Below are positions 5,619 to 35,300 of a stretch of 39,120 nucleotides of DNA, one piece after another. A program made the position numbers and the translations under genes. The stretch's first letter is position 1. Every line of letters begins with the position of its first letter. Origin of the DNA: Actinomycetota bacterium (lineage in GTDB: Bacteria > Actinomycetota > Acidimicrobiia > Acidimicrobiales > GCA-2861595); NCBI GenBank assembly GCA_016781225.1, contig JADDQT010000001.1:10537-49656 (forward strand), in the 5' to 3' direction. The notes beneath the pieces are model-generated. The model was not told the origin of the DNA. It did not search any database and saw only the letters and a list, made by a program, of their open reading frames with translations.

Positions 5619-7196
5619 GTGAGGCGGGCCCTCTGGGGCGTGCTGGCGCTGGGTGCCCTTCTGCTGCCGCCTTTGCCGCTCGGCGGCGAGCGCGAGGCAG
5701 CGCAGTCCCGGCGGCCCCAGCAGGTCGACCCGGGCAAGGTCCTGCGGATCGGCGTCACCCGCGTGCCAACGCTCGATCCGGCCCAGGCCCGCTCGGTGGA
5801 CCAGGCCCTGGTGGCCGACCAGCTGTTCGACTCGGTGACCGCCGTGGACTCCACGACCCTGCAACCGGTGCCCTCTCTGGCCGAACGCTGGACGGCCTCT
5901 GCGGACCAGAGGCAGTGGGACTTCGTGCTGCGGCCCGGAGCGGTGTTCTCCAACGGCCGGCCGATCACCGCCGAAGACGTGCGGTACACCTTGGAGCGCG
6001 TTGCTCGTCCCGGCTCGGGCTCGCCGGTGGCCGAGGTTCTCCAGCTCGTCAGCGGCTACGACCCCTTCCGCAAGAACGCCGCTCCGGGCCTGGCGGGCAT
6101 CACCGCCCCGGCGCCCAACGTGGTCCACATCAGCCTCGATCAGCCCTGGGCTCTCCTGCCCACGGCCTTGAGCAGCCCCCTGTTCGGCGTGGTGGCCAAG
6201 GAGTCGGCCGAGGCCGAAGGCCCCGGACCGACCATCACCGACGAGCCGGTGTCCAGTGGGCCGTTCCAGGTGGGGCGCCAGCGAGGGCAGACGCTGCCGC
6301 TCGTGCCCGCTCGCAACACGAGCACGAAGCTGGCGGGCATCGACGTCGTGCGCTTCGACGAGATCGGCCTGGCGTACCAGGCGTTCGAGAACGGCGACTT
6401 GGACTTCGTCCGGGTGCCCGCCGACGACATCACCGAGGCGGGCCGCCGCTACGGGCGCCAGGGGTTCCGGCCCTACCTGGCCGAGCTCTTCTACGGCTTC
6501 AACATGAAGAACCCCAAGTTCGCCGACGGACGGTTCCGGGAGGCCATCGTGCGCGGCATCAACCGCCGAGCCATCGTGACCGCGATCTACCAGGGCACGG
6601 TGCGACCCACGGACAGCACGGTGCTCGACGGGGTTGGCAGCAAGGAGTACGTATGTGAGCGCTGCGCTCACGACCCGGCGCGGTCCAGAGCTCTCGTGCA
6701 GGAGGTCTTCAAGGGAGGGCCGCCGCCACCGGTCGCCCTCGACTACGACGACGACGCCACTCAGGACGCCATCGCCAAGGCCATCCAGGCCAGCCTGGCG
6801 GAGGTGGGCATCAAGGTCGATCTGCGCCCGAAGGCGCCCCGCGACTACGACGGGTTCGCCGTCTCCAATGAGCCGGAGCTGTTCCGCCTGGGCTGGATCG
6901 CCAACTACCCGTCGCCCGACGCCATCCTCCCCCCGCTGTTCGGCACCGACTCGCTCGACAACCTCACCAACTTCAGCAACCCCGCCGTGGACGCCATGAT
7001 CAGGGCGGCCCGAGCCGAGGGCGACCCCGGCCGGAGAGCCCAGCTGTACCAGGACATCGAGCGCACGGTCATGGAGCAGCTGCCGGTCGTGCCCATCGCC
7101 CAGTTCAACGTCCACTCGGTGATCTCCAAGCGGGCCAAAGGCGTGAAGCTGAACAGCTACGGCGGCTTCGACGCCACCCAGGTTCGGGTCGGCTGA
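5619..7196 (+). CDS. ABC transporter substrate-binding protein, family 5 (peptide/nickel type)
   Basis: GTG 5619 follows AGAGGTGG. The N-terminus looks like a signal peptide (MRRALWGVLALGALLLPPLPLGG). SBP_bac_5-like segments: FSNGRPITAEDVRYTLERV, GFNMKNPKF. Confidence 0.85.
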   Translation: MRRALWGVLALGALLLPPLPLGGEREAAQSRRPQQVDPGKVLRIGVTRVPTLDPAQARSVDQALVADQLFDSVTAVDSTTLQPVPSLAERWTASADQRQWDFVLRPGAVFSNGRPITAEDVRYTLERVARPGSGSPVAEVLQLVSGYDPFRKNAAPGLAGITAPAPNVVHISLDQPWALLPTALSSPLFGVVAKESAEAEGPGPTITDEPVSSGPFQVGRQRGQTLPLVPARNTSTKLAGIDVVRFDEIGLAYQAFENGDLDFVRVPADDITEAGRRYGRQGFRPYLAELFYGFNMKNPKFADGRFREAIVRGINRRAIVTAIYQGTVRPTDSTVLDGVGSKEYVCERCAHDPARSRALVQEVFKGGPPPPVALDYDDDATQDAIAKAIQASLAEVGIKVDLRPKAPRDYDGFAVSNEPELFRLGWIANYPSPDAILPPLFGTDSLDNLTNFSNPAVDAMIRAARAEGDPGRRAQLYQDIERTVMEQLPVVPIAQFNVHSVISKRAKGVKLNSYGGFDATQVRVG

Positions 7197-7262
7197 GCGG
7201 CGGGTCCGCCGTCACCGGCAGGGTAGAGTCGCGGTCCTCCCGGCCGTCGAGGCCGGCGCTTC

Positions 7263-7346
7263 GTCGGAGTGGCGGAATAGGTAGACGCGCTAGCTTGAGG
7301 GGCTAGTGCCCGCAAGGGCGTGGGGGTTCAAGTCCCCCCTCCGACA
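7263..7346 (+). tRNA. tRNA-Leu, anticodon GAG, class II with long variable arm; no encoded CCA
   Basis: Hand fold:
- acceptor GTCGGAG/CTCCGAC plus discriminator A
- D arm GCG-GAATAGGTAGA-CGC
- anticodon stem CTAGC/GCTAG with loop TTGAGGG
- variable arm GCCC-GCAA-GGGC
- T arm GGGGG-TTCAAGT-CCCCC. Confidence 0.9.
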
Positions 7347-7462
7347 CTGGCGATACGGACACCTAGATCCGCAGTCGCCTCGACCACCTTCTCGTGCGGG
7401 TCGTACACGGCGCGGAGCCCGATCTCCTCGTAGAACGGGTGCGCAGCTTCGGATGGGTCACC
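7328..7462 (-). other. Out-of-frame (-1) conserved-looking integrase C-terminal segment, crossing the att core into the tRNA
   Basis: Reads GDPSEAAHPFYEEIGLRAVYDPHEKVVEATADLGVRIASVGGGT*. It joins the main frame at the G4 run (C-run 7461-7464 on the + strand). Confidence 0.55.
7336..7344 (+). other. attL core CCCCTCCGA (tRNA T-stem and acceptor 3' strand)
   Basis: This is the only segment shared exactly by the tRNA end, the inter-copy junction and the distal end. Confidence 0.7.
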
Positions 7463-8985
7463 CCGACCAGGCCGACCAGGCCACCGATCTCCTCGACCGC
7501 CTCGCGGATCTGCGCCTTGGTCATCCGGACCGCGTCGGCGTCCGCTGAGGCGGCTCGGAGCATCGCTTCTGCCTCCCGGCGCTCGCGCGTGACCTCGGCG
7601 ATCCACTGGCCGACGACCTTCGGGTCGGTGCCGCCGTCGAGAGCGACGCGGTAGCGCTCGAGCTTCCGGTCGCACTCCCGAATAGCTGCCTGTGCCTCGG
7701 CCCGAGCGGCGATTGACGCGTCAGTGTCAATGGCTTCGACCAGGGCGTCGCAGGTGGCATCGATGTTCTCCGGGTCGAAGATGGTCCCGAGCCAATCGTC
7801 GATGTGCGGCAGCAGATCGCGTTCGCGGAGATAGACCGCCTTCGGGTGGCGGAACTCACTCGCCGTCGCGTACTGCGCCGCATATAGGCAGCGGTAGTAC
7901 GGCTCGTCGTGGTGCCAACTGCCTTGAAGCCGCTTCCCGCACAGCCGGCAGCGAAGCCGGCCACGGAGCAGGTACGGCCGATCCGTACGCTTCGGGCGAC
8001 GCTCCTGCGGTCCACGCTTCGCCGCTTGCATCTTCACCTGGACGGCATCGAAGACCTCGCGTTCGATCAGCGGCTCGTGCGCCGGCTCGGCCGACCAGAT
8101 CCACTCGCTCTCACCGTTCCACCGCATCACCGTCCGGTGCCCCGCGCCGACGTCCTCGACGTCGACGAGTACCTCCTCACGCCGCTGCTTCGCCCAGACC
8201 TGGTAGCCGGTGTAGCGGGGATTCATGAGGATCGCCCGGACGGCGGACTTCCCCCATGCCCAGCCGTGACGGTGTGGGTTTCGCTCGCGGTCGTAGCCGC
8301 TCGGCGACGGAACACCTTCGGCGGTCAGCTGCTCGGCGATGGCGAGGTAGCCCACGCCGGCCAGGTACTCGTCGAAGATCCGTCGCACGACCGGCGCGGT
8401 GACCGGGTCGGGCTTGAGCTGATGCAGTCGCTTTCCGTCACTCGCCTTCTCTGGGTTCGGGTGCGGTCCGATGTCGCCCAGCCGGTAGCCGTACGGCGGC
8501 CGACCTCCGAGAAACCGCCCCTGCATCTCGGCCTGCGCGCTCATCGCCGTGCGAACGCGCGTCTTGATGCGTGACCGCTCGCCCTTGGACATGCCGCCGA
8601 AGAGCATCATCACCAGGTCGTGCGCCTCGGAGCCGGGATCGATGGCACCGCCAACCTCGGGAACCCAGACGGCGACGCCGTAGTGCGTGAAGACCGGGAA
8701 CGTGAGGCCGAACTGGTTGCCGTAGAAGGCCCGCTGCGGCTCGCCGATCACGACAGCCTCGAACCCGCGGGCACGCTGCGCGAGCGCGGCGAGCAGCGCC
8801 GACGCCTCCGGCCGGCGCTTCCAGGGCAGCGACCGGCTCTGTGCGACGTCGAAGAACTCTGCGACCACTGTCCCGCCGGCGGGCTCGATGAGCTGCCGGC
8901 TGCGGTGGAGCTGCCACTGCTTCGACGACTCGGGGTCCTGCTGGTCCTCGGTGCTCACCCGGCCGTAGAAGGCGAAGCGGATCAT
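7363..8985 (-). CDS. Large serine recombinase (integrase), copy 1; the 3' end is probably frameshifted
   Basis: Resolvase catalytic motif FAFYGRVSTEDQ, recombinase domain GGRPPYGYRL, zinc ribbon CRLCGKRLQG...YYRC. The last ~32 aa are Arg/Ser/Thr-rich and look out of frame. Confidence 0.85.
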   Translation of the reverse strand: MIRFAFYGRVSTEDQQDPESSKQWQLHRSRQLIEPAGGTVVAEFFDVAQSRSLPWKRRPEASALLAALAQRARGFEAVVIGEPQRAFYGNQFGLTFPVFTHYGVAVWVPEVGGAIDPGSEAHDLVMMLFGGMSKGERSRIKTRVRTAMSAQAEMQGRFLGGRPPYGYRLGDIGPHPNPEKASDGKRLHQLKPDPVTAPVVRRIFDEYLAGVGYLAIAEQLTAEGVPSPSGYDRERNPHRHGWAWGKSAVRAILMNPRYTGYQVWAKQRREEVLVDVEDVGAGHRTVMRWNGESEWIWSAEPAHEPLIEREVFDAVQVKMQAAKRGPQERRPKRTDRPYLLRGRLRCRLCGKRLQGSWHHDEPYYRCLYAAQYATASEFRHPKAVYLRERDLLPHIDDWLGTIFDPENIDATCDALVEAIDTDASIAARAEAQAAIRECDRKLERYRVALDGGTDPKVVGQWIAEVTRERREAEAMLRAASADADAVRMTKAQIREAVEEIGGLVGLVGVTHPKLRTRSTRRSGSAPCTTRTRRWSRRLRI

Positions 8986-9260
8986 CGGTTGGACCCTAGG
9001 CCGCGTCCTCGGGCGGTAGCGGTGACCGCTGGTCGCACTGCCGGCGCTTGGCTTCTCGCACCATGGCGAGCAATACGGCGGCAGCCCGAGGGCTGATGCT
9101 CGGCGGTCGGGCAGGGGAGGGCTTGACGCGTTTGCAGACGGGCTGGGATCGGGACGGTTGACGTTGGTGTCTTGTCATGCCCTGACGGTGAAGTTCGCCC
9201 CTCAACGGAAACCTCAACGGAGCTCTCAACGATCGAGCTTCCGTCGCTTCCACTCCTTCA

Positions 9261-9488
9261 TCACCGGCCCCGGGCGGTCACCGATCTTGTTGAGCGCCCT
9301 CTGGCCACCGCCGCGAAGCGCTGATAAGCCGACTGACGGGTAATGCCGAAGGCGGCACCCACGTCGGCCCAGGTAGCGCCAGCGTCACGGGCGAGTGCGA
9401 CGTACTCGCCCGCCTGATGCTTCAGCTCCTTGGCTCGCTCGTCGGCCCCTCGGGCACGACGCAGCAGCTGGCTTACGAGTGCGCTCAT
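9261..9488 (-). CDS. Small HTH DNA-binding protein (75 aa), possible regulator or excision factor
   Basis: Internal ATG 9488 is preceded by GGGGAGA. HTH segment WADVGAAFGITRQSAYQRF. It is divergent from the 9629 gene. Confidence 0.6.
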   Translation of the reverse strand: MSALVSQLLRRARGADERAKELKHQAGEYVALARDAGATWADVGAAFGITRQSAYQRFAAVARGRSTRSVTARGR

Positions 9489-9628
9489 GGGATCTCCCCG
9501 CGTCAAGGACCAGGAGAGAGCCGCAGCCGGCTCCGAGCCGAGCATCAGTGTGCCAGGAAACCCGTCGCGAATCGGGCGTCTGGAGGCACGTAGATCGTCT
9601 AGGAGCCCTCGACCCGTGGAGGTGGACC

Positions 9629-10624
9629 ATGAGCGATCACGAGATTGGGCGGAGCAAGGCAGGGGACGACCGCAGGCTCAGCGACCAGGAGAAAAATCAG
9701 CGCCTCCGATCACTCCTCACGCCCCTCGTCAACGACCTCGTCCGCGCCACTCCGGCCCATCCGCACGACCCAACCCGCCGCGTTCATCAGCCCGGCCACG
9801 ATCCTTCGCCGACGCCCTCAACGCTCCCTTCATGCAACCACACAGACTTGCCGCTTCCGCAGAGCGGAAGCAGCGGAAGCAGTCCCACCGGCGAAGGAGG
9901 GCGGCAACAGCCGACCGCCGCCGACCTGATGGAGATCCTTGACCAGACGCTCGTCATGCCGGTTGCGCCGCCCCTCCGTGATCTCGAGCCCCAGGTCGTG
10001 GTGCGGTGGGTAGAGGCTGCGTCGGAGGCACTCCTGCATCGACGCGAACGCCGCCGCCTGGTGCGCGAAGTCCTACGCGTGCTCGATGAGGAGTGGGCGA
10101 CGGCCGAGGCAGCCAAGCGGCTGCGCGAGCAGATCGCCACGTGCGAAGCGGCGCGCCGCCGGCGCGAGGCGGGCACCTACTGGCAGCACCGCGAGGCAGG
10201 CCGCCGATCCCAGCGTCCGGTGCGCGTCGAGGTGGACAGCGAGGCCTGGCGCCGAGCGAAGGAGATCGCCAGGCAGCTCGCCGTCGGTCTGGGCGAGTAC
10301 GTCGGCCAGGTCGTCCGCGATCACCTGGCCACACCGCTCGACGAGGGCGCGATCGCCCGGCTCAGCCAGACGAGGCGCCGCCAGACCACCCGTGAGCGGA
10401 TCTACTTACGGATCGACGTCTCGAGCAGTGACTGGGATGACCTGGTCGCCCGCGCTCGAAACCGCCGCACAACTCTGCTCCGCTACCTCGGAGCGCTCGT
10501 CGAGGCCACCGTCTGGGAGGAGTGTGAGCTGCGCACAGACGGGCGACCCGTTGCCTCTGGCCCGTACGATCGAACGGATGGTTACCACCGGCTGCCCGGC
10601 CGCGACGCCGATGAGCAGGCGTAG
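9629..10624 (+). CDS. Hypothetical protein with a disordered N-terminus, a coiled coil and two tandem ribbon-helix-helix-like motifs
   Basis: ATG 9629 follows GGAGGTGG. RHH-like units: VRVEVDSEAWRRAKEIARQLAVGLGEYVGQVVRDHL and RIYLRIDVSSSDWDDLVARARNRRTTLLRYLGALVEA. Confidence 0.6.
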   Translation: MSDHEIGRSKAGDDRRLSDQEKNQRLRSLLTPLVNDLVRATPAHPHDPTRRVHQPGHDPSPTPSTLPSCNHTDLPLPQSGSSGSSPTGEGGRQQPTAADLMEILDQTLVMPVAPPLRDLEPQVVVRWVEAASEALLHRRERRRLVREVLRVLDEEWATAEAAKRLREQIATCEAARRRREAGTYWQHREAGRRSQRPVRVEVDSEAWRRAKEIARQLAVGLGEYVGQVVRDHLATPLDEGAIARLSQTRRRQTTRERIYLRIDVSSSDWDDLVARARNRRTTLLRYLGALVEATVWEECELRTDGRPVASGPYDRTDGYHRLPGRDADEQA

Positions 10625-10627
10625 CAC

Positions 10628-11584
10628 GTGACGTTGCGGTGGACGGACCTCCACCCAGAGGCGGGTATGACGGCCGCACTGGATCATGCCGACGCGGAGA
10701 CATCCCGCGTCGTCATCGAAGCCGATGTCGCCCGCATTGCCGAACAAGGTCTGTCGCGCGAGCAGCGAAAGCGCGAGCGCGAGCCCCTCCGCGACATGCG
10801 GAAGCGGTGGTCAGAGCGCTTCGCGAACGGATCGGCCACGATGCTCGCGAACGAGTTGCGGGGTCATCGTGTCGTCTCGCGTCGGTTCAGGGTCGCGCCC
10901 CTTCCAGATGGAACAGGGCAGGAGTCGTTCTGGCCCCTGGGCTATCGGAGTGGCAAGCGGATCGACGTAGTGGTCGCCAGAGAGCTCGTGGGCCTCCAGC
11001 TCGGCGCGTCGCTCAAGGGATTGAACTTCCGAGACGACGAGGGCGGGAACTTCGACAAGAACCTGACCGGGCGCCTGTACGAGTTGGCCGATGAGATGAC
11101 GACGGTGCACCGCCATCTCCCTCGCGCCTTCATGGCAGGGATCTTCTTCCTGCCGATCGACGCGTGCTTCGATAAGGGACCCGGGCAGTCGTCATTCGCG
11201 CACACGGTCCTCGAACTCCGTCGGCGTTCGGATCGCGACCCAGCAGACGCGTCACAGTCCGCAAGGTGTGACTTCGCTGCGGTCGGGCTCTATGCGCCCG
11301 GAGGCGGCGTGTCGAGCGAACGAGGGATCGGAAGGGGAGTCGTCCGCTTCTTTCCCGTCGATCGACCACCTCCCCGCAGGGAGCTGCCTCCCGTCGAAAG
11401 AACACTCACCCTCGCCGAGCTGGCCGACCGCATGCTCGCCGGAGCGATCGGTGGGACTGCGGCGAGCGACGCATACGGCGATGCCGAAGACGAGCTCGCC
11501 GAGGGCGAGGAGCCGACAGCGCTCGAGGACGTCGTGCTCGCCGAAGAGGCTGGCGAGATCGACGAGATCGCGCTCGAGGAGTAG
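10628..11584 (+). CDS. Hypothetical protein, possible PD-(D/E)XK nuclease (candidate restriction endonuclease)
   Basis: GTG start 4 nt after the previous stop. Core-like pattern KRIDVVVARELVGLQLGASLKG (D...SxK). The acidic C-terminal tail is disordered. The function is a guess. Confidence 0.4.
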   Translation: MTLRWTDLHPEAGMTAALDHADAETSRVVIEADVARIAEQGLSREQRKREREPLRDMRKRWSERFANGSATMLANELRGHRVVSRRFRVAPLPDGTGQESFWPLGYRSGKRIDVVVARELVGLQLGASLKGLNFRDDEGGNFDKNLTGRLYELADEMTTVHRHLPRAFMAGIFFLPIDACFDKGPGQSSFAHTVLELRRRSDRDPADASQSARCDFAAVGLYAPGGGVSSERGIGRGVVRFFPVDRPPPRRELPPVERTLTLAELADRMLAGAIGGTAASDAYGDAEDELAEGEEPTALEDVVLAEEAGEIDEIALEE

Positions 11585-11607
11585 CTGCGGTTCGTCGCTC
11601 AGCCGCA

Positions 11608-12525
11608 TCAGCCGGCCATCCGGAACCGTTCGTAGCGCTCCTCGAGGAGTTCGCGGTTCGGGCGAGCTGCTCGTTGGCGGGGAAGCTCGATCCGCTCTAG
11701 GTGCAGCCGCTGAAGCGCATACGTCAGCGTGGGGCCGTCCTCCTCGACGAGAACGTCGGGGCGTACCTCGATCGCGTAGTCCGGCCGGACGGCCATCAGC
11801 ATGGTGTCGAAAGCGGCGTGGTGGATCTTGCACATTGCGATGCCGTTAGTCACGACTGGTTCTCCGCCGAGTGAGTCGTTCCGGATGTGGGCCGCGTCGA
11901 GGAGCTCGCGATGCCGTAGACGGCAGAAGGCACAGCGGTTCTCGTAGGCGGCCAGCACTTGAGCTCGGAACACTGGCTGCTGCAGACGTTCTTTGACAAT
12001 GCGGTCGGCATAGGCGCGGCGCAGCTCGATCACGACGGCGTCGTGGGTGTCTCCCCACGTGTGAAGCTGCTCTGGGTCCAGCGCAACGACGAACTGGTGC
12101 TGCTCTGGCTCTTCGGCGACGAGCCACACCGGGAACACCGGTAGATACAGGCCCGGAGCGAGCCCTTGAAACCAGATGAGAGGGAGCTGGCGTTCCATGG
12201 CCTTGCGAAGGGCGACGTTTTCCGGGTGGCTCGCGTTCCTCCCACGCCATTTGTACCGCTGGTAGCCGTCGACCCCGCGTTCATCGGCATAAGGCCGCTG
12301 GTCCGGGCTAGAGGCGAACACCGTCCTGAAGCTCAACGCCGCATCGAGCATGCGCGGCTTTCGGATGCCCCTCTGGATGTCCATGAGAGGGATTCGCTCG
12401 CCGTCGAGCACGAAGCCCGCCACGTCTTCGTGTCGCACCGGTCCGCCGGTGCGCAGTTGGACGGCCCGGAGGTGGGCGAGAGCCGAGGAGCGCAACCGCT
12501 CGTCGAACTCCTCGTCCATGGCCAC
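11608..12525 (-). CDS. HNH nuclease (HNH_2 / COG3440-like predicted restriction endonuclease) with an SRA-like N-terminal domain
   Basis: HNH segment CAFCRLRHRELLDAAHIRND...NGIAMCKIHHAAFD. The N-terminal YADERGVDGYQRYKWRGRNASHPENVALRKA resembles the YDG/SRA signature. Confidence 0.65.
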   Translation of the reverse strand: MAMDEEFDERLRSSALAHLRAVQLRTGGPVRHEDVAGFVLDGERIPLMDIQRGIRKPRMLDAALSFRTVFASSPDQRPYADERGVDGYQRYKWRGRNASHPENVALRKAMERQLPLIWFQGLAPGLYLPVFPVWLVAEEPEQHQFVVALDPEQLHTWGDTHDAVVIELRRAYADRIVKERLQQPVFRAQVLAAYENRCAFCRLRHRELLDAAHIRNDSLGGEPVVTNGIAMCKIHHAAFDTMLMAVRPDYAIEVRPDVLVEEDGPTLTYALQRLHLERIELPRQRAARPNRELLEERYERFRMAG

Positions 12526-12733
12526 GGAGGCGGACTGTAACCACGGCTTGGGCTGATCGCCGAGATCCGCGCCTATGAGGGGGGCGACGACCTATTGTCA
12601 GCTCAGCCTCGTTCCGGCCGCGGGTATCTCGCGGTCGGCGATCGACTGGAGTCGAGCTCTCGGGCAGCAGCGGCGCGGCCGCCCCGCGATGGAGGCCCTC
12701 GTGTGACGAGGCGAGATCGACGGGGGTAGCCCC

Positions 12734-14005
12734 ATGGCCCGATGTGGCGCTGTATCGCTTCAGAAGTCCCTCTTTGCATCCTTGGGACGGGATGGCCTCG
12801 ATGCTGAGTTTCATCGATGTAATTTGGGTCCCGTGGGTAACGTCGCCGGGTTCACGGTCGCCGCGCTGTTCGCCGGAATCGGTGGCATCGAGCGCGGCCT
12901 CGAGAAGGTCGGCGGACATACCGAACTCCTCTGCGAGAACTGGGATCCAGCAGTCGCCGTTCTCGGCGAGCGTTTCCCGGACGTGCCAATGGTGGGGGAC
13001 GTCAGGGATCTACGGTCGCTGCCGAAGGTCGACGTGGTCACGGCGGGCTTCCCGTGCACCGACCTCTCTCAGGCGGGGCGGACGAAAGGGATCCAGGGCA
13101 ACGCGTCCGGCCTCGTCGCCGAGGTGTTCCGTCTTCTGAAGCGCACCAAGGCCCCTGTACTGCTCCTCGAGAATGTGCGGAACATGCTCGTTCTCGACGG
13201 GGGCAAGGCCATGCGGTACCTCGTTGCGGAACTTGAGGCCCTCGGCTACCGCTGGGCCTATCGTCTCGTCGACTCTCGCTTTACGGGAGTCCCTCAGCGG
13301 CGCCAGCGCGTCATCTTCGTGGCAGCAAGGGAAATCGATCCACGGGCAGTGCTGTTCGCCGATGATGCGGGTGAGCCGGACGCCGAGCGTTACAGCGACG
13401 CGTGCTTCGGGTTCTACTGGACCGAGGGGCTGCGCGGCCTCGGATGGGCGAAGGACGCGGTGCCTACGCTCAAGGGCGGGTCCACGATCGGCATACCCTC
13501 GCCGCCGGCAATATGGGCGCCGAACAACCAGCTCGGTCTCCGTCTGGTCACTCCCGCGATCGAAGATGCCGAGGAACTACAGGGATTCGAACCTGGGTGG
13601 ACCGAGCCGGCCGAGCTGGTCACCAAGCGGCGTGGGACCCGCTGGAAGTTGATCGGTAACGCCGTCACCGTCGGCGTGTCGACGTGGTTTGGTCGGCGAT
13701 TGGCCGATCCGGGAGAGCCATTCCTCGAGGGAGCGGCGGTTCAGTCGGGCGACCGATGGCCCAACGCCGCGTTCGGGGCCTCCGGCAAGGCGTGGGCGGT
13801 TGACGTGTCGATGTGGCCCACACACCAGCCATACCGTCATCTCGCGGAAGTGATGGATCTCCTGCGCGCGACACCTGTGTCTGCGCGAGGCGCTGGGGGC
13901 TTCCTTTCGCGTGCGCAGCGTGGAAGCCTTCGGTTCATGGATGGCTTCCTAGAGGATGTCGCCGAGCACGTCCGCTTCATGAACGAGGAACTGTTTGGCG
14001 CCTGA
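12734..14005 (+). CDS. dcm: DNA (cytosine-5)-methyltransferase; the start is uncertain (ATG 12734 or GTG 12833)
   Basis: Motif I LFAGIGG, motif IV GFPCTDLSQAG, motif VI LLLENVRNM, motif VIII QRRQRV, motif X LIGNAVTV. Confidence 0.9.
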   Translation: MARCGAVSLQKSLFASLGRDGLDAEFHRCNLGPVGNVAGFTVAALFAGIGGIERGLEKVGGHTELLCENWDPAVAVLGERFPDVPMVGDVRDLRSLPKVDVVTAGFPCTDLSQAGRTKGIQGNASGLVAEVFRLLKRTKAPVLLLENVRNMLVLDGGKAMRYLVAELEALGYRWAYRLVDSRFTGVPQRRQRVIFVAAREIDPRAVLFADDAGEPDAERYSDACFGFYWTEGLRGLGWAKDAVPTLKGGSTIGIPSPPAIWAPNNQLGLRLVTPAIEDAEELQGFEPGWTEPAELVTKRRGTRWKLIGNAVTVGVSTWFGRRLADPGEPFLEGAAVQSGDRWPNAAFGASGKAWAVDVSMWPTHQPYRHLAEVMDLLRATPVSARGAGGFLSRAQRGSLRFMDGFLEDVAEHVRFMNEELFGA

Positions 14006-14450
14006 GCCTGTGCGTCCGGGGCGGCCAGCAGCGTCGTCGGAGGAGATCCGACTTCGGATGCAGCGTCAGGCCGGCCGGGACACGAAGCCCGAACTCGCCC
14101 TCCGCCGAGAACTGTGGCGTCGAGGATTGCGGTACCGAGTCGACCTTGCACCCATCAGTGGGCTTCCTCGTCGAGCCGACATGGTCTTCAGCCGCGCACG
14201 AGTCGCTGTCTACGTGGACGGGTGTTACTGGCACAGCTGCCCGGATCACGCCACGGTCCCGAAGGCCAACCGCGACTGGTGGGTCGCGAAGCTTGAGGCG
14301 AACGTGAAGCGTGATCGTGACACCGATGCTCGATTGCGATGGGCGGGTTGGGAGGTGGTGCGCGTGTGGGAGCACGAGACGATCGTCGACGCGGCAGATC
14401 GGATCGAGTCCGTCGCGCGCGAGCGACCTGGCAGCGCCGGGAGCGGATGA
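13995..14450 (+). CDS. vsr: Very-short-patch repair endonuclease Vsr
   Basis: Segments DTKPELALRRELWRRGLRYRV, VAVYVDGCYWHSCPDH and NRDWWVAKLEANVKRD. It overlaps the dcm 3' end by 11 nt (TTG 13995; alternative GTG 14010). Confidence 0.9.
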   Translation: MAPEPVRPGRPAASSEEIRLRMQRQAGRDTKPELALRRELWRRGLRYRVDLAPISGLPRRADMVFSRARVAVYVDGCYWHSCPDHATVPKANRDWWVAKLEANVKRDRDTDARLRWAGWEVVRVWEHETIVDAADRIESVARERPGSAGSG

Positions 14451-14524
14451 TGTTCAGCACCCTGACGGGACCCCGTTTGGTGGTCCACCCGCTATGAGAG
14501 TGGTCCATGGGTGACACCCGGCCT

Positions 14525-15421
14525 CTAGGACGCCCGTAGAGGCGCCGGAAGGTCCGGGGATGGGTTGGGAGTGCCGACGAATTGATCGTCGACCTCCCAT
14601 CTTGTTTGGTACTCGGCGGGGGTGAGCCCATCGAGGGCCGAGTGAGGCCGGTAGGTGTTGTACTCGATCCTCCAGGCCTCGATGAGGACCTGCGCCTCGG
14701 CGAGGGAGCCGAACTCCTCGGTGTTGAGCAGCTCGTCTCGCACCCGGCCGTTGAACGACTCGACGTAGGGGTTCTGCCACGGTGAGCCGGGCTCTATGTA
14801 GATGGTCCCGGTGCCGGCCAGGCGGCACCACTCCCGAAGGGCCCAGGCCACGAGCTCGGGTCCGTTGTCCATGCGCAGATGCGCCGGTGCGCCTCGCTCG
14901 GCCACCAGGGCCTCGATGGTGGCCACCACCTCATCGGCGTCGCAGGATCGCCCCACCCGCATGGCCAGGGCTTCACTGCTGTGCTCGTCGACGATGTTCA
15001 ACAGCTTGAGCCTCCTCTGATCGGCGGTCTCGTCGAACTGAAAGTCCAGGGCCCACACGTCATTGGGATGTTCAGCCCTCCGGCGCTCCGCGGTGCTGGC
15101 GTGGGTCCGGCGGCGCTTGTGGCAGTGCTGGGGTCGGCGCAGGCCCTCCTCCCTCCACAGGCGCTGCGTGCGCTTGCGGTTGATGACCCAGCCCTCTCGG
15201 CGAAGGAGGCGATGGGCCGCCTTCCAGCCCCAGCGAGGATGGCGGCGGGCGATGTCTCGCAGACGGCGACGCAGCTTGTCCTCCTCGGCCGGACGAGGCC
15301 GGCACGGCTTGCGCTGGGTGGAGCGCTGCTGGCCCACCACTCGATAGGCCCGGCGTTCGGAGACCCCGAAGCGCTCCTGTAGGACCACGACGGCCCTGCG
15401 GCGGCGCTTCGGGGTCACCAT
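14525..15421 (-). CDS. IS3-family transposase OrfB (DDE/rve integrase core)
   Basis: Segments WALDFQFDE, LRMDNGPELV and PGSPWQNPYVESFNGRVRDE. Its ATG overlaps the orfA stop (ATGGTGA). Confidence 0.9.
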   Translation of the reverse strand: MVTPKRRRRAVVVLQERFGVSERRAYRVVGQQRSTQRKPCRPRPAEEDKLRRRLRDIARRHPRWGWKAAHRLLRREGWVINRKRTQRLWREEGLRRPQHCHKRRRTHASTAERRRAEHPNDVWALDFQFDETADQRRLKLLNIVDEHSSEALAMRVGRSCDADEVVATIEALVAERGAPAHLRMDNGPELVAWALREWCRLAGTGTIYIEPGSPWQNPYVESFNGRVRDELLNTEEFGSLAEAQVLIEAWRIEYNTYRPHSALDGLTPAEYQTRWEVDDQFVGTPNPSPDLPAPLRAS

Positions 15422-15693
15422 TTTCCCTCGGCCAGCTCCTTGAGCGTGGCCTTGTCCAGCTCAGCGTCGGCCAGCAGGCGCTTCAGCCGACCGTTCTCCG
15501 ACTCGAGCTCCCGCAGGCGCTTGGCCTCGGAGGCCTTCATGCCCCCGTACTGGTTGCGCCAGCGGTTCCAGGTGGCTTCGGACACCTCGAGGTGGCGGAG
15601 CACCTCGGTGAGGTCCTTGCCGTCGTTGAGCAGCCGCTCACCCTCGCGGAGCTTGCGCACGACCTGCTCGGGGGTGTGGCGGTGTCGCTTCAT
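15415..15693 (-). CDS. IS3-family transposase OrfA (HTH plus leucine zipper)
   Basis: MKRHRHTPEQVVRKLREGERLL... The slippery heptamer G_GGA_AAA sits just before the stop. A -1 shift gives the fusion ...LAEGKMVTPKRRR. Confidence 0.85.
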   Translation of the reverse strand: MKRHRHTPEQVVRKLREGERLLNDGKDLTEVLRHLEVSEATWNRWRNQYGGMKASEAKRLRELESENGRLKRLLADAELDKATLKELAEGKW

Positions 15694-15976
15694 CGTGGTC
15701 AGTCCCTTCATGCCCAGATCCTGGGCGTCGGACTCCCACAGTTGGTGGACCACTTTCCGGGGGCCCCGTCAACCCCACCGGGCGTCCCGAGTGGCGGGCA
15801 AGGTTCGAGCAGGAGGACGCCGCGTCCGCGAGAAGTCGTCTTCTACTTTCAAGGCTTAGAAGGACGCCACACTGTGGCCGCCCGATCGTCCAGGACGCCT
15901 GCACGCTCGAGGAGACGGTGGAAACCCTTGGTGCGAGCCCTCGGCTCCGCGCGACGTTGTCTGGGCGCACCCTGAG

Positions 15977-15993
15977 CGGGCCCTCACGGCCCG
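15977..15993 (-). terminator. GC hairpin (CGGGCC-CTCAC-GGCCCG) directly after the GHKL gene stop
   Basis: 6-bp perfect stem abutting the stop codon at 15994-15996. There is no U-tract. Confidence 0.3.
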
Positions 15994-17796
15994 TCAGTCC
16001 GCGTCCGCTGTGAACAGGATGTCGGAGAGATCGACTGCTGCCGAATCCTGGATCGTCCCGAGGAGTTCCCACAGGTACTCGGAGATGTCGGTGGTGCCGT
16101 CCCAGTTCGCCCGCACGTCGTATGCCTGGATCACTTCGACGAAACGGCTGAAGACGTAGTCACGCCATCTCGCGCTCTTGGCGCCCTCGTCCTGGAGCAT
16201 CCGCTCGGCGAGTGGGCGCTGCGCGTTGATCCACCACAGGTTGGCCTCGACATCATGGGTCCGCTGGTACACCACCGGCTGACGAGGATGGAGAGTGAAC
16301 ACCTCGCCAGAGTCGGGGTCAGGGTCGTATCCGGAGATCCGAATCTCTGGGAAGCGCGGCACGCTCTTCTTCTTGTCACCGGCACCACCACCGCCAGTCT
16401 GCGTGCCACTGCCGCCCGAACCCGCGCCGCCGCCGCCACCTCCACCGCCGGATCCGCCCTTCTTGTCATGGAACTCGCCCGGGCCGCCGGCGCCGCCACC
16501 ACCCGTGCCGCCTTCGCCTGCGCCTTCGCCCTTACCCACGCTCACCATCACCTCGCGGGCGCGAAGGAACTTGTTCTTCCAGCGGTTCAAGCGGTTTGAC
16601 AGCGCTTGGTTCTCGTTTTCTTCCCGAGCCCGTCGCTTTGCGTTCTCCTCCTTGGCCAGCTCGTCGGAGAGATCATCTATGCGTAACGCAACCCACTCGA
16701 GGATCGCGTCGGTCATAGGGTTCGCTACGAGATGGACACGGTCGTTGGTCTTCAGCCCGTGATCCTCAAGCACCGGAGCGTCGAGCGCTCCGTAGATGAA
16801 GTCGGCGCCTGCTCGGTTCCGGATTGGCAGTTCGCCGACCCGATAGCTGGCGATGATCAGGCCGTTACGTCCCTTGACGTCGATCGCATGAGTCGGATCG
16901 CGGCGTGTAAATGGGTCGAAGGCAACACGAAGCGTTAGCTCACCAGCCTTTGGCTTGTCGGTGAGGGTGAAGACGTCATCCCCGCTCTTCAGCTCGGCTG
17001 GCAGGTCATACGATCGGCCCTCCTCGTAACCCGGTCGATCGGGGATCGCGGGGAGACGGAGAGGGTCAATGATCCTGTCACCGTCAGAGAACGCGACATG
17101 TGCTCGTTCGAGGACTTGCTTTGCCTGCGGATCCGCGAGGAGCTTCAACTCGAAGGCCTCACTCCGGCTCCATTGTGCGGGATGACGCAACCCTCGTCCT
17201 CGTACGATTGTGAAATGACACATCTGCGGGTCGTCGGAGGCCACGGCGGGTCGAACCGCATCAGGCAGGTCGCCGCAAGTCGGGGCGAGCCCGGCGATCG
17301 CTCGCGCTCGGTCCGGTGAGACCGTGGCGCCTCGGTAGCGTTCGTCGAAGCCGTATTGCTTGCTCTCGTCGAATCCGAAGACCGTGATGCGCCCGTCGCG
17401 GTAGGTGATGAACTCTGATCGCTTGAAGTTCTCCCGCATGTGGAACTTGCCGCCGTTTCCGTGCCCGCCAAAGCCGGCGAAGTCGGCACGGCCGCGGCTT
17501 GCGGCGACGTCTGAACCCCACCGCTTGAGGTGTTCGTCTATCTCCTCGTAGGTCGCTCCGATGAAGTCGATGCACTCCATCACGCCATCCGTGCCGGCAC
17601 GCGACGTCGGGGTCTCGACGTGCATGACGATGAACGGGACGCCTGGCTCATCCATGCGAACGGCCTGGTCGTACGCGTTCTTGAGCCACTCTGCGGCGCC
17701 TGCAGCGTACTTCCCTTGGAACTGTGCGCCGAGAAGGTCGAGCACGCGCTCCTTGTCCATCTCGGCTTCCTGATGCGCAATTGCAAAGTCAGTCAT
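15994..17796 (-). CDS. GHKL (Bergerat-fold) ATPase with a coiled coil, a ~57-aa Gly-rich linker and an unknown C-terminal domain
   Basis: N-box EWLKNAYDQA, G1-like ECIDFIGAT, G2 box AGFGGHGNGGKF. The ATG at 17796 overlaps the upstream stop (ATGACTGA). Confidence 0.7.
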   Translation of the reverse strand: MTDFAIAHQEAEMDKERVLDLLGAQFQGKYAAGAAEWLKNAYDQAVRMDEPGVPFIVMHVETPTSRAGTDGVMECIDFIGATYEEIDEHLKRWGSDVAASRGRADFAGFGGHGNGGKFHMRENFKRSEFITYRDGRITVFGFDESKQYGFDERYRGATVSPDRARAIAGLAPTCGDLPDAVRPAVASDDPQMCHFTIVRGRGLRHPAQWSRSEAFELKLLADPQAKQVLERAHVAFSDGDRIIDPLRLPAIPDRPGYEEGRSYDLPAELKSGDDVFTLTDKPKAGELTLRVAFDPFTRRDPTHAIDVKGRNGLIIASYRVGELPIRNRAGADFIYGALDAPVLEDHGLKTNDRVHLVANPMTDAILEWVALRIDDLSDELAKEENAKRRAREENENQALSNRLNRWKNKFLRAREVMVSVGKGEGAGEGGTGGGGAGGPGEFHDKKGGSGGGGGGGGAGSGGSGTQTGGGGAGDKKKSVPRFPEIRISGYDPDPDSGEVFTLHPRQPVVYQRTHDVEANLWWINAQRPLAERMLQDEGAKSARWRDYVFSRFVEVIQAYDVRANWDGTTDISEYLWELLGTIQDSAAVDLSDILFTADAD

Positions 17797-18418: not shown

Positions 18419-18420
18419 CG

Positions 18421-19932: not shown

Positions 19933-19936
19933 CGAG

Positions 19937-20503: not shown

Positions 20504-20529
20504 CAGCAGCGAGCCTTCCTTACAGGAGT

Positions 20530-20583
20530 CATTGCAATGAGTATTGCATCCACCGCCAGCGATTGCAATCTACATTGCAATAA
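20530..20583. promoter_or_regulatory. Array of ATTGCAAT palindromes in the divergent promoter region (putative operators)
   Basis: CATTGCAATG at 20530-20539, TATTGCAT at 20543-20550, GATTGCAATC at 20561-20570 and CATTGCAATA at 20573-20582. This is an AT-rich motif in GC-rich DNA, between the operon start (20503) and phd (20675). Confidence 0.55.
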
Positions 20584-21261: not shown

Positions 21262-21275
21262 GACGACCTGCAGAT

Positions 21276-21440
21276 TCACAACAACTCGATTCGTGTCCGC
21301 AAGGGGACAATCGCCCCTCCGACACTGGCGATACGGACACCTAGATCCGCAGTCGCCTCGACCACCTTCTCGTGCGGGTCGTACACGGCGCGGAGCCCGA
21401 TCTCCTCGTAGAACGGGTGCGCAGCTTCGGATGGGTCACC
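21276..21440 (-). other. Out-of-frame integrase C-terminal segment, copy 2, with a different tail after the att core
   Basis: Same -1 frame as copy 1, but it ends ...RIASVGGAIVPLRTRIELL* because it reads into the doc-side arm instead of the tRNA. Confidence 0.55.
21314..21322 (+). other. Inter-copy junction core (attP-like: doc-side arm joined to int-side arm)
   Basis: GGGGACAATCG-CCCCTCCGA-CACTGGCGATACGG. The left arm equals the attR left arm and the right arm equals the attL right arm. Confidence 0.7.
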
Positions 21441-22963
21441 CCGACCAGGCCGACCAGGCCACCGATCTCCTCGACCGCCTCGCGGATCTGCGCCTTGGTC
21501 ATCCGGACCGCGTCGGCGTCCGCTGAGGCGGCTCGGAGCATCGCTTCTGCCTCCCGGCGCTCGCGCGTGACCTCGGCGATCCACTGGCCGACGACCTTCG
21601 GGTCGGTGCCGCCGTCGAGAGCGACGCGGTAGCGCTCGAGCTTCCGGTCGCACTCCCGAATAGCTGCCTGTGCCTCGGCCCGAGCGGCGATTGACGCGTC
21701 AGTGTCAATGGCTTCGACCAGGGCGTCGCAGGTGGCATCGATGTTCTCCGGGTCGAAGATGGTCCCGAGCCAATCGTCGATGTGCGGCAGCAGATCGCGT
21801 TCGCGGAGATAGACCGCCTTCGGGTGGCGGAACTCACTCGCCGTCGCGTACTGCGCCGCATATAGGCAGCGGTAGTACGGCTCGTCGTGGTGCCAACTGC
21901 CTTGAAGCCGCTTCCCGCACAGCCGGCAGCGAAGCCGGCCACGGAGCAGGTACGGCCGATCCGTACGCTTCGGGCGACGCTCCTGCGGTCCACGCTTCGC
22001 CGCTTGCATCTTCACCTGGACGGCATCGAAGACCTCGCGTTCGATCAGCGGCTCGTGCGCCGGCTCGGCCGACCAGATCCACTCGCTCTCACCGTTCCAC
22101 CGCATCACCGTCCGGTGCCCCGCGCCGACGTCCTCGACGTCGACGAGTACCTCCTCACGCCGCTGCTTCGCCCAGACCTGGTAGCCGGTGTAGCGGGGAT
22201 TCATGAGGATCGCCCGGACGGCGGACTTCCCCCATGCCCAGCCGTGACGGTGTGGGTTTCGCTCGCGGTCGTAGCCGCTCGGCGACGGAACACCTTCGGC
22301 GGTCAGCTGCTCGGCGATGGCGAGGTAGCCCACGCCGGCCAGGTACTCGTCGAAGATCCGTCGCACGACCGGCGCGGTGACCGGGTCGGGCTTGAGCTGA
22401 TGCAGTCGCTTTCCGTCACTCGCCTTCTCTGGGTTCGGGTGCGGTCCGATGTCGCCCAGCCGGTAGCCGTACGGCGGCCGACCTCCGAGAAACCGCCCCT
22501 GCATCTCGGCCTGCGCGCTCATCGCCGTGCGAACGCGCGTCTTGATGCGTGACCGCTCGCCCTTGGACATGCCGCCGAAGAGCATCATCACCAGGTCGTG
22601 CGCCTCGGAGCCGGGATCGATGGCACCGCCAACCTCGGGAACCCAGACGGCGACGCCGTAGTGCGTGAAGACCGGGAACGTGAGGCCGAACTGGTTGCCG
22701 TAGAAGGCCCGCTGCGGCTCGCCGATCACGACAGCCTCGAACCCGCGGGCACGCTGCGCGAGCGCGGCGAGCAGCGCCGACGCCTCCGGCCGGCGCTTCC
22801 AGGGCAGCGACCGGCTCTGTGCGACGTCGAAGAACTCTGCGACCACTGTCCCGCCGGCGGGCTCGATGAGCTGCCGGCTGCGGTGGAGCTGCCACTGCTT
22901 CGACGACTCGGGGTCCTGCTGGTCCTCGGTGCTCACCCGGCCGTAGAAGGCGAAGCGGATCAT
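21341..22963 (-). CDS. Large serine recombinase, copy 2
   Basis: Translation identical to 7363..8985 (offset +13,978), with the same frameshift. Confidence 0.85.
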   Translation of the reverse strand: MIRFAFYGRVSTEDQQDPESSKQWQLHRSRQLIEPAGGTVVAEFFDVAQSRSLPWKRRPEASALLAALAQRARGFEAVVIGEPQRAFYGNQFGLTFPVFTHYGVAVWVPEVGGAIDPGSEAHDLVMMLFGGMSKGERSRIKTRVRTAMSAQAEMQGRFLGGRPPYGYRLGDIGPHPNPEKASDGKRLHQLKPDPVTAPVVRRIFDEYLAGVGYLAIAEQLTAEGVPSPSGYDRERNPHRHGWAWGKSAVRAILMNPRYTGYQVWAKQRREEVLVDVEDVGAGHRTVMRWNGESEWIWSAEPAHEPLIEREVFDAVQVKMQAAKRGPQERRPKRTDRPYLLRGRLRCRLCGKRLQGSWHHDEPYYRCLYAAQYATASEFRHPKAVYLRERDLLPHIDDWLGTIFDPENIDATCDALVEAIDTDASIAARAEAQAAIRECDRKLERYRVALDGGTDPKVVGQWIAEVTRERREAEAMLRAASADADAVRMTKAQIREAVEEIGGLVGLVGVTHPKLRTRSTRRSGSAPCTTRTRRWSRRLRI

Positions 22964-24602: not shown

Positions 24603-24605
24603 CAC

Positions 24606-35291: not shown

Positions 35292-35300
35292 CCCCTCCGA
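35292..35300 (+). other. attR core CCCCTCCGA
   Basis: The island sequence ends here and is followed by unique GACGGTCCTTACGC. Confidence 0.7.

What the first reader, a model, noticed from the sequence alone, without database searches (positions are those of the whole stretch)
7328..7675. The integrase 3' end is frameshifted at a G4 run, and the conserved-looking frame reads across the attachment core
**Frameshift.** After ...EEIGGLVGLVG the annotated frame continues as VTHPKLRTRSTRRSGSAPCTTRTRRWSRRLRI*, which is compositionally junk-like. From the G4 run (C-run 7461-7464 on the + strand; 21439-21442 in copy 2), the -1 frame reads GDPSEAAHPFYEEIGLRAVYDPHEKVVEATADLGVRIASVGG... This fits the tail I recall at the C-termini of actinobacterial large serine recombinases (DP..A..Y..LGL...Y.P....V.A).

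**Reading across att.** That frame does not stop before the crossover core.
- At attL it ends inside the tRNA T-arm (...SVGGGT*, 7328).
- At the attP-like junction it ends 12 codons later (...SVGGAIVPLRTRIELL*, 21276).

**Alternatives.** Either the integrase is crippled in both copies, which would lock the island in place, or there is a homopolymer sequencing error. If the frame is restored, the Int C-terminus depends on integration state. That would resemble integration-dependent gene truncation in some mycobacteriophage immunity systems.
Basis: partly seen in the sequence, partly recalled or inferred. Interest (0 to 1): 0.6.

Follow-up and report, generated by a model that had tools for sequence, protein, structure and literature searches.

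The report
Frameshifted serine integrase beside tRNA-Leu
A mobile island's integrase gene has lost one base near its end, which probably disables the enzyme. Its reading frame normally crosses the island's attachment point and stops inside the neighbouring tRNA gene, and this is an ordinary trait of the whole enzyme family, not a special switch.

Summary
The frameshift is real in the assembly, but it is not at the G4 run. The annotated frame still matches homologues for nine more codons (VTHPKLRTR). The closest intact homologue (85% identical, 552 aa, same tRNA-Leu site) has CCCGGTTC on the coding strand where the window has CCCGTTC. That is one base missing at window 7436.

The out-of-frame tail FYEEIGL...SVGGGT is the conserved C-terminus. 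Versus that homologue it shows 10 synonymous and 4 non-synonymous codon changes.

Reading across the att core is a family trait. ARAGORN found tRNA-Leu overlapping the integrase stop in 54 of 80 related loci. The residues after the crossover vary from 2 to more than 70 and are modelled as disordered. I therefore see no support for an integration-state switch.

"Copy 2" is not independent evidence. A sister MAG, 99.99% identical, has after the junction only 507 bp of the integrase 3' end, then 1083 bp of unique DNA. The window's perfect tandem is therefore probably a repeat-induced mis-join. The frameshift allele could even belong only to that remnant.

This scan has already reported serine integrase ORFs running into tRNA genes on other DNA. 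Verdict: an ordinary decaying island integrase, of low interest.

The parts
7263..7347 (+). tRNA-Leu(GAG), intact. Its 3' end is regenerated by the island. It is transcribed towards the integrase 3' end.
   Evidence: ARAGORN. The same tRNA abuts the integrase in 54 of 80 related loci.
7363..8985 (-). Large serine recombinase ORF as assembled: 540 aa, of which the last 24 residues (RSTRRSG...RLRI) are out of register.
   Evidence: Pfam Resolvase, Recombinase and Zn_ribbon_recom. 85% identical to P0004 over residues 1-522 with no other stop or shift.
7435..7437 (-). Lesion: one base missing relative to the family register. The homologue has ACC CGG TTC; the window has ACC CGT TC. On the plus strand this is GAACGGG against GAACCGGG.
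   Evidence: DNA alignment. In the 21-mer test, the version with the extra C is found in L006/L007/L057 and only the shorter version in the window's genome and the sister MAG.
7328..7435 (-). The conserved C-terminal 35 codons plus stop, now out of frame (FYEEIGL...SVGGGT*).
   Evidence: 31/35 residues identical to P0004. 10 synonymous and 4 non-synonymous codon changes in this frame, against 4/12 and 0/15 in the other two frames.
7461..7464 (-). It is not the lesion.
   Evidence: The annotated frame stays homologous for nine codons beyond it.
7336..7344 (.). Shared 9-bp core CCCCTCCGA at the tRNA junction. The same core is at 21314-21322 and 35292-35300. The likely crossover dinucleotide is GA at its right edge (inferred).
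   Evidence: ATCGCC/GGCGAT symmetry around TCCGAC was read from the sequence.
21314..21820 (-). Repeat R1: a second copy of the island's left arm plus 507 bp of the integrase 3' end, joined to the island's right arm at junction J (21314). In the sister MAG only this much of a second copy exists.
21341..22963 (-). Second 540-aa integrase ORF of the assembly. It is probably a re-used assembly path, not an independent gene copy.
   Evidence: 100% identity over 13.8 kb. The sister MAG replaces 21821-34599 with 1083 bp of unique DNA.
21276..21340 (-). Continuation of the conserved frame across junction J into the island's right arm (...VGG|AIVPLRTRIELL*). The right arm is a decayed copy of the tRNA-Leu 3' half.
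   Evidence: Sequence. Local alignment to the antisense tRNA.
35292..35300 (.). Core at the right-hand junction. The DNA to its right looks like a decayed integrase-side arm of an older element, not pristine tRNA flank.
   Evidence: Compared with the remnant in same-genus genome G003.

Best explanation
**What it is.** The gene at 8985..7363 is the integrase of a roughly 14-kb island inserted at the 3' end of tRNA-Leu(GAG). It belongs to a widespread actinobacterial clade of large serine recombinases. In this clade the island's attachment site sits in the last codons of the integrase's own ORF. In the integrated state the ORF therefore runs over the crossover and is stopped by a TGA in the antisense of the tRNA T-loop (...VGGGT*).

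**The lesion.** In this assembly one base has been lost at window 7436. This shifts the frame after residue 516. It replaces the last 35-36 conserved residues, which are the end of a helix plus a beta-hairpin that follow the coiled coil and belong to the second DNA-binding (zinc-ribbon) domain, with 24 junk residues.

**Timing and effect.** The loss is evolutionarily recent, because the tail still shows purifying selection in its old frame. It most likely leaves an integrase that cannot bind or regulate recombination properly. In short, this is ordinary decay of an island integrase.

**Shown and inferred.** Shown: the position of the lesion, the family register, the overlap with the tRNA, and the conservation pattern. 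Inferred: loss of function, and that the lesion sits in the full-length gene rather than only in the neighbouring 507-bp remnant.
For: - **Family register.** Homologues are 548-552 aa and end ...VGGGT.
- **Position of the lesion.** The DNA alignment shows the single missing base.
- **Recent loss.** 10 synonymous and 4 non-synonymous changes in the restored frame. Non-synonymous rates in the 3' part are no higher than in intact homologue pairs.
- **No other damage.** No other stop or shift in residues 1-522.
- **Structure.** AlphaFold2 model of the intact homologue:
  - helices to residue 521 and hairpin 525-538, at pLDDT 82-89;
  - last 10 residues at pLDDT 27-42.
- **Fold.** Full-length large serine recombinase fold by Foldseek and PDB profile search.
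- **Analogy.** In SPbeta integrase the chain returning from the coiled coil is part of DBD2 and matters for directionality (PMC11722253).
- **Reproducibility.** The same 540-aa protein is in a second MAG, GCA_017884105.1.
- **Assembly quality.** The assembly is not indel-prone. At most 1-2 plausible shifts were found among 157 orthologue-like ORFs compared with a same-genus genome.
- **tRNA overlap.** ARAGORN finds tRNA-Leu overlapping the stop in 54 of 80 related loci, and alignment adds at least 3 more.
Against: - No reads could be inspected.
- The 507 bp that hold the lesion are a repeat shared with a truncated remnant next door (sister MAG).
- Differences between the two repeat copies sit only at the repeat edges, which is what assembler collapse produces. 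Both positions may therefore show one merged allele.
- Both MAGs come from the same study and probably the same pipeline, so they are not fully independent.
- Loss of function is inferred from a model and from analogy, not measured.
Confidence: 0.6

Rival explanations
1. Repeat collapse. The full-length integrase is intact in the organism. The one-base loss belongs to the adjacent 507-bp integrase remnant, and the assembler merged the two near-identical copies and wrote the remnant's allele at both places.
For: - The sister MAG shows a remnant (R1 507 bp, then 1083 bp unique, then the phd/doc end) where the window shows a second full copy.
- Differences between the island and the remnant lie only next to repeat edges: R1 offset 496, and R2 offsets 20, 21 and 531-678.
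- N50 is 7.3 kb with runs of N, which points to short-read scaffolds.
Against: - Both assemblies show only the shifted allele.
- The repeat sequence shows no other sign of pseudogene decay.
- No intact near-identical protein exists among 5.8 billion clusters.
Confidence: 0.25
2. Plain sequencing or consensus error at 7436. No copy in the cell is shifted.
For: - The change is a 2-to-1 run-length change.
- The tail still looks fully selected.
Against: - The assembly looks like short-read scaffolds with few shifts elsewhere.
- The same allele is in a second MAG.
- The site is not a long homopolymer.
Confidence: 0.07
3. The C-terminus is a regulatory device. The form made from the free element carries an extension (here AIVPLRTRIELL) that changes integrase stability or directionality. 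Integration swaps it for GT*, as in Mx8 IntP/IntX or integration-dependent immunity.
For: - The ORF does cross the core in the whole clade.
- Several non-tRNA tails of relatives end in -AA: P0089, P0117, P0121, L086, L096.
Against: - The segment is modelled as disordered.
- Tails after the crossover range from 2 to more than 70 residues and follow whatever the antisense tRNA encodes.
- Similarity among the non-tRNA tails is explained by decayed tRNA copies in the right arm.
- This element's tail has no -AA.
Confidence: 0.05
4. Programmed ribosomal frameshift, or a functional short isoform.
For: A second family member (P0008) has a one-base loss 4 nt away and the same 540-aa length.
Against: - There is no X XXY YYZ slippery heptamer at the site (sequence).
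- Most of the 119 listed homologues are in one continuous frame.
- The two losses are at different bases.
- The equal length follows from a shared TAG in the conserved arm.
- Shifts near the 3' end are the ones that still rank high in a search.
Confidence: 0.03

Closest known systems
Serine-recombinase AICEs of Mycobacterium integrated in tRNA-Leu (Ghinet et al. 2011, PMC3218068)
   Same: Large serine recombinases of Actinobacteria that insert at a tRNA-Leu gene. The paper calls such targeting rare. Relatives of the window's enzyme occur in Nocardia, Micromonospora, Streptosporangium, Nonomuraea and Mycobacteriales, at tRNA-Leu(GAG).
   Different: - Direct sequence relatedness to those eight recombinases was not tested.
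- This island has no recognised transfer or replication genes according to an earlier unchecked note.
- The paper does not describe the ORF crossing the att core.
Myxococcus phage Mx8 IntP/IntX (Tojo 1996; Magrini 1999; summarised in PMC6070905) and SSV-type integrases
   Same: attP lies inside the integrase ORF, so integration gives the gene a new 3' end. Islander notes that such integrases extend across attP.
   Different: - Those are tyrosine recombinases.
- In Mx8 the change alters the enzyme's properties, and SSV integration splits the gene.
- Here only the last two codons lie beyond the crossover, in a disordered tail.
Integration-dependent immunity of mycobacteriophages (Broussard 2013, from my own knowledge; Dedrick 2021, PMC8092301)
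   Same: A stop codon at attL shortens a phage-encoded protein. tRNA genes are often the partner.
   Different: - There the attP is in the repressor gene, the integrase is a tyrosine recombinase, 20-35 residues are removed, and an ssrA-like -AA tag is lost.
- None of these applies to this element.
Structurally characterised large serine integrases (SPbeta SprA 9dxd/9dxf, Bxb1 9iu2, phiC31 9rah, LI 4kis)
   Same: Same domain order: catalytic domain, DBD1, and zinc-ribbon DBD2 with an inserted coiled coil. Foldseek E-values run from about 1e-17 (SPbeta, Bxb1) to 2e-7 (LI), and the profile hit to SprA has E 2.5e-11.
   Different: - Sequence identity is 13-19%.
- Their attP sites lie outside the gene and their targets are protein-coding genes or intergenic DNA, not tRNA.

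Membership tests
Large serine recombinase (serine integrase) | N-terminal resolvase catalytic domain with the nucleophile serine | tested here: met
   PF00239, E 5.9e-10, residues 5-155. YGRVSTEDQ with S11 invariant in 62 homologues.
Large serine recombinase (serine integrase) | Recombinase domain (DBD1) and zinc-ribbon domain (DBD2) with Cys ligands | tested here: met
   PF07508, E 9.8e-23. PF13408 scores 25.8 bits against a cut-off of 25.3. C346, C349 and C366 are invariant.
Large serine recombinase (serine integrase) | Coiled coil inserted in DBD2 | tested here: met
   AlphaFold2 model of the intact homologue P0004 has helices 421-450 and 455-486. Full-length Foldseek hits to SPbeta, Bxb1 and phiC31 integrases.
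Large serine recombinase (serine integrase) | Complete DBD2, including the chain that returns after the coiled coil | tested here: not met
   In the assembled window ORF the frame shifts after residue 516 and the conserved helix end plus hairpin are lost.
Large serine recombinase (serine integrase) | Catalyses attP x attB recombination | not testable with these tools
   Needs an in vivo or in vitro assay.
tRNA-Leu-targeting actinobacterial serine recombinase clade | Integrase 3' end abuts or overlaps the 3' end of tRNA-Leu on the opposite strand | tested here: met
   The window. ARAGORN in 54 of 80 related genome loci, plus at least 3 more by alignment.
tRNA-Leu-targeting actinobacterial serine recombinase clade | Sequence relatedness to the Mycobacterium AICE recombinases of Ghinet et al. 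| not tested
   Indirect only: 50.5% identity to a Mycolicibacterium aubagnense replicon and 60% to a Mycobacteriales MAG protein.
Integrase with attP inside its own ORF (Mx8 type) | The crossover core lies within the coding frame, so the C-terminus differs between free and integrated forms | tested here: met
   In the conserved frame, the core at 7336-7344 encodes VGG. It is followed by GT* at the tRNA junction and by AIVPLRTRIELL* at junction J.
Integrase with attP inside its own ORF (Mx8 type) | The two forms differ in activity or specificity | not testable with these tools
   Indirect evidence is against it: the tail is disordered and hypervariable in length among relatives.
Integration-dependent immunity-like tag removal | The free form carries an ssrA-like -AA C-terminus that integration removes | tested here: not met
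   The free-form tail of this element ends ...RIELL. Some relatives' non-tRNA tails do end in -AA, but their state is unknown.
Programmed ribosomal frameshift | Slippery heptamer at the shift, and the shift conserved in relatives | tested here: not met
   No X XXY YYZ in AAG CTG CGC ACC CGT TCT. Most of 119 homologues are unshifted.

The most novel reading that the evidence does not exclude
Across this clade the integrase made by the free, non-integrated element carries a C-terminal extension read from the island's right arm. Several relatives' versions end in -AA. This extension could tune the enzyme's stability or directionality, and docking at tRNA-Leu would remove it by supplying a stop codon from the T-loop. 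That would be a serine-integrase counterpart of Mx8 IntP/IntX or of integration-dependent immunity.
Probability: 0.05. Interest if true: 0.7.

Novelty: new member of a known kind. Interest (0 to 1): 0.27.

Why it matters
- **Annotation.** In this clade the true integrase C-terminus lies across the att core and ends in the tRNA. A 540-aa call with an Arg-rich tail therefore flags a broken gene.
- **Reading this window.** The "tandem duplication", and anything inferred from "two copies", rests on an assembly path that a sister MAG contradicts.
- **Biology.** A broken integrase would mean the defence and addiction cargo is now fixed at tRNA-Leu. That is commonplace.
- **The wider point.** Large serine recombinases that target tRNA-Leu, with the att site in their own last codons, are abundant in Actinomycetota, although Islander (2015) stated that serine integrases are not known to target tRNA genes. 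This scan has already made that point on other DNA, so this window adds one more example.

Tried and rejected
- **Shift at the G4 run.** Rejected by the protein and DNA alignments.
- **Indel-prone assembly.** I compared 207 long ORFs of same-genus genome G002 with the window's genome. There were 8 two-frame hits among 157 orthologue-like ORFs, but 6-7 lie at ORF 5' ends with non-coding base composition and so are intergenic indels.
- **A second allele.** A short-query protein search found only the sister MAG's 207-aa remnant. The 21-mer with the extra C is absent from the genome.
- **Sister MAG record.** The genome search does not hold it. I reached it by walking with the look-up of encoding contigs.
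- **Empty-site comparison.** G002 and G005 have unrelated DNA after the tRNA. G003 has a remnant. No clean attB was recovered.
- **Phage origin.** No hit in 50,697 phage records and only two large replicons among the plasmids.
- **Single-sequence PDB search.** It found nothing. The profile search was needed.
- **Source paper.** A literature search for the MAG accessions found nothing relevant.
- **Conserved peptide in non-tRNA tails (PVLRGEL-like).** The decayed tRNA copy in the right arm explains it better.
Full report
**What is at the coordinates**

- tRNA-Leu(GAG) lies on the plus strand at 7263-7347.
- Converging on it, on the minus strand, is a 540-aa ORF at 8985..7363. It has Resolvase, Recombinase and zinc-ribbon domains, so it is a large serine recombinase.
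- The finding's interval, 7328-7675, is the alternative-frame ORF. It ends ...FYEEIGLRAVYDPHEKVVEATADLGVRIASVGGGT.
- Its TGA at 7330-7328 is the complement of TCA in the tRNA T-loop.
- A GGGG run lies at 7461-7464, and the same sequence recurs 13,978 bp downstream.
- Long out-of-frame ORFs are common in this 68.5% GC DNA. The open frame alone means nothing; homology has to decide.

**Which frame is conserved, and where the break is**

- A search of 5.8 billion protein clusters returned thousands of relatives. The best 119 are mostly 546-563 aa and cover only about 96% of the query.
- 54 of the 119 end ...GGGT. Many others end GGGI, RGGT or EGGT, and the rest run on as GGLEPP... or RRGDLNPHAL....
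- The closest homologue, P0004, is 85% identical and 552 aa. It comes from an Acidimicrobiales MAG at the same tRNA-Leu, with the same SBP, SecG, TIM and PGK neighbours.
- P0004 reads ...GLLGVSRPKLRTRFYEEIGLTAVYDPHQKVVEATADLGVRISSVRGGT.
- The window's annotated frame gives ...GLVGVTHPKLRTR and then junk. Its other frame gives FYEEIGL... but, before that, GDPSEAAHP, which matches nothing.
- The switch is therefore nine codons downstream of the G4 run.
- The DNA alignment shows it exactly. The homologue has CGCACCCGGTTCTAC and the window has CGCACCC-GTTCTAC. One base is missing at window 7436, where CC has become C on the plus strand.
- The 21-mer with the extra base is present verbatim in the homologue's loci. 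It is absent from every contig of the window's genome.

**The loss is recent**

- From TTC onward, the window and the homologue differ at 14 codons. In the restored frame 10 are synonymous and 4 non-synonymous. The other two frames give 4/12 and 0/15.
- Non-synonymous change per codon in the last 135 codons before the lesion is 0.20, and in the tail 0.12. For a pair of intact homologues the same regions give 0.41 and 0.41.
- There is no other stop or shift in residues 1-522.
- The gene looks functional apart from this one lesion.

**What the lost segment is**

- I modelled the intact homologue with AlphaFold2, using 62 aligned sequences (mean pLDDT 79.5).
  - Coiled-coil helices span 421-450 and 455-486.
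  - Helices continue to 521, followed by a beta-hairpin at 525-529 and 534-538, at pLDDT 82-89.
  - The last ten residues have pLDDT 27-42.
- Foldseek finds full-length matches to SPbeta, Bxb1, phiC31 and LI integrases. A profile search finds SPbeta SprA at E 2.5e-11.
- In SPbeta integrase the coiled coil is inserted in the second DNA-binding domain. The returning chain is part of that domain, and a residue there, F532, matters for directionality (PMC11722253).
- By analogy, the shift after residue 516 removes structured parts of DBD2. I infer a defective enzyme, but this is not shown.

**Reading across the att core is a family trait**

- I fetched 80 related loci from Acidimicrobiales, Micromonospora, Nocardia, Streptosporangium, Nonomuraea, Streptomyces and others.
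- ARAGORN finds tRNA-Leu (GAG in all but one locus) on the opposite strand within reach of the integrase stop in 54 of them. Alignment adds at least three more.
- Beyond the crossover the protein gets whatever the antisense tRNA encodes in that frame:
  - two residues where T TGA ACC is in frame;
  - 10-16 residues (GGLEPPRPIKGTSTSS);
  - more than 70 in some;
  - in one locus, an in-frame run-on into the next gene.
- With the disordered model of this segment, this argues that these residues are dictated by the DNA site and are neutral for the protein.
- About 19 loci have decayed-tRNA or non-tRNA junctions instead. Their tails resemble one another because the islands' right arms carry decayed copies of the tRNA 3' half, as here.
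- Five such tails end in -AA. I noticed this after the fact and did not follow it up. This element's own tail ends ...IELL.

**"Copy 2" and the attP-like junction**

- In the window, 7336-21152 equals 21314-35130 base for base. All differences lie in the last 161 bp before the core.
- The assembly has an N50 of 7.3 kb and contains runs of N, so it looks like short-read scaffolds. Such an assembly cannot resolve a 14-kb perfect repeat.
- Walking along a sister MAG settles most of this. The record is GCA_017884105.1, contig JAGELI010000001.1, 200,543 bp.
  - It matches window 5994-21820 with 2 mismatches and no gaps. That stretch runs from SBP through the tRNA, the whole island and junction J, and then 507 bp of integrase 3' end.
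  - It continues with 1083 bp found nowhere in the window's genome.
  - It then rejoins at 34600 (phd/doc, right junction, the split SauUSI-like gene).
- The neighbour of the island is therefore a remnant: an integrase tail, a small membrane-protein ORF and phd/doc.
- Differences between island and remnant sit only beside the repeat edges: offset 496 of the 507-bp repeat, and offsets 20, 21 and 531-678 of the right-hand repeat. That is the signature of graph collapse, or alternatively of concerted evolution.
- I therefore think the window's tandem is probably a mis-join through two repeats. A true tandem, or a free circular island plus an integrated remnant, is not excluded.
- Two consequences follow.
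  - The second copy is no independent witness of the frameshift.
  - The shifted allele might belong to the remnant only and have been written onto the full gene.
- Against the second point:
  - both MAGs show only that allele;
  - the repeat shows no other decay;
  - no intact near-identical protein exists in the database.

**Sequencing error**

- As a substitute, I compared 207 long ORFs from 400 kb of a same-genus genome with the window's genome.
  - Among 157 orthologue-like ORFs there were 8 two-frame matches.
  - 6-7 lie at ORF 5' ends, where the base composition is non-coding.
  - At most 1-2 are plausible shifts.
- The assembly is not indel-prone, and the site is not a long homopolymer.

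**Recoding**

- There is no slippery heptamer at AAG CTG CGC ACC CGT TCT.
- One relative, P0008, has an independent one-base loss 4 nt away and is also 540 aa long. P0037 and P0078 also look shifted in this region.
- The equal length follows from a TAG in the conserved arm (CTAGGTGTCCG).
- Shifts near the 3' end are the ones that still score well in a search, so I read these as parallel decay.

**The right flank**

- The base after the core at 35301 would give a G1-G72 mismatch in a reconstructed tRNA.
- The DNA there resembles a decayed integrase-side arm like the one in same-genus genome G003. In G003 a tRNA 3' fragment, an integrase 3' remnant and doc sit next to DNA matching window 38859-39120.
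- This tRNA-Leu is thus an accretion site, and the island landed next to older debris.

**Comparison with what is known**

- Ghinet et al. 2011 reported eight Mycobacterium AICE serine recombinases that integrate into tRNA-Leu, and called such targeting rare.
- Islander (2015) stated that serine integrases are not known to target tRNA genes. It also noted that some integrases (Mx8, SSV) extend across attP.
- In Mx8 the attP lies in int, and integration gives the gene a new 3' end.
- Integration-dependent immunity truncates repressors by 20-35 residues and removes -AA tags.
- The present case shares the geometry, with the att site inside the ORF and a tRNA partner. It shows none of the functional hallmarks.
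- This scan has already described serine integrase ORFs running into tRNA genes on other DNA, including an actinobacterial clade.

**Verdict**

- This is an ordinary, recently broken island integrase of a known kind, and there is a real chance that assembly collapse exaggerates the damage.

Noticed in passing
window 21314-35300; L139 (sister MAG GCA_017884105.1): The perfect 13,978-bp tandem is contradicted by a 99.99% identical sister MAG. After the junction that MAG has only 507 bp of integrase 3' end, then 1083 bp of unique DNA with a 157-aa membrane-protein-like ORF, then the phd/doc end. The unique DNA is absent from all contigs of the window's genome.
   Followed up: yes
P0089, P0117, P0121; L086, L096: Five relatives whose integrase ORF leaves the tRNA-like sequence after the core end in -AA (DLDAA, LNAA, DFAAA, RPAA, SVAA). 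This is reminiscent of ssrA-like tags. It was noticed post hoc, and their integration state is unknown.
   Followed up: no
L008 3330-3606 (Logan contig of SRR7456202): A 73%-identical relative (P0008) has an independent one-base loss 4 nt from the window's lesion and the same 540-aa length.
   Followed up: partly
L036 2340-3251 (same-genus genome G003): A tRNA-Leu 3' fragment, a roughly 130-bp integrase 3' remnant and a doc homologue lie next to DNA 85% identical to window 38859-39120. This is an older layer of the same accretion site.
   Followed up: partly
G002:C9:290039-290062 and similar short hits in G003, G006, G007, G017 and G020: Exact 22-24-nt copies of the tRNA-Leu 3' end lie elsewhere on the same or other contigs (in G002, about 10.5 kb from the tRNA). 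This suggests other islands at this tRNA in the family.
   Followed up: no
window 35321-38412; L139 1045-4136: The split SauUSI-like gene (534 aa plus 483 aa) is split the same way in the sister MAG, so the split is reproducible across the two assemblies.
   Followed up: partly
L109 4611-6123 (Pseudonocardia kunmingensis): The integrase ORF reads through the whole antisense tRNA-Leu and continues in frame for about 500 residues into what looks like the neighbouring peptidase gene.
   Followed up: no
L024, L025 (Logan contigs of SRR12717696, SRR12717688): Contigs carrying the identical SBP gene stop inside the tRNA, at about window 7300-7312, before the core. This suggests a branch or a coverage break there in those runs.
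   Followed up: no
G024 (same order), five places: One genome holds five integrases of this family at 55-59% identity.
   Followed up: no
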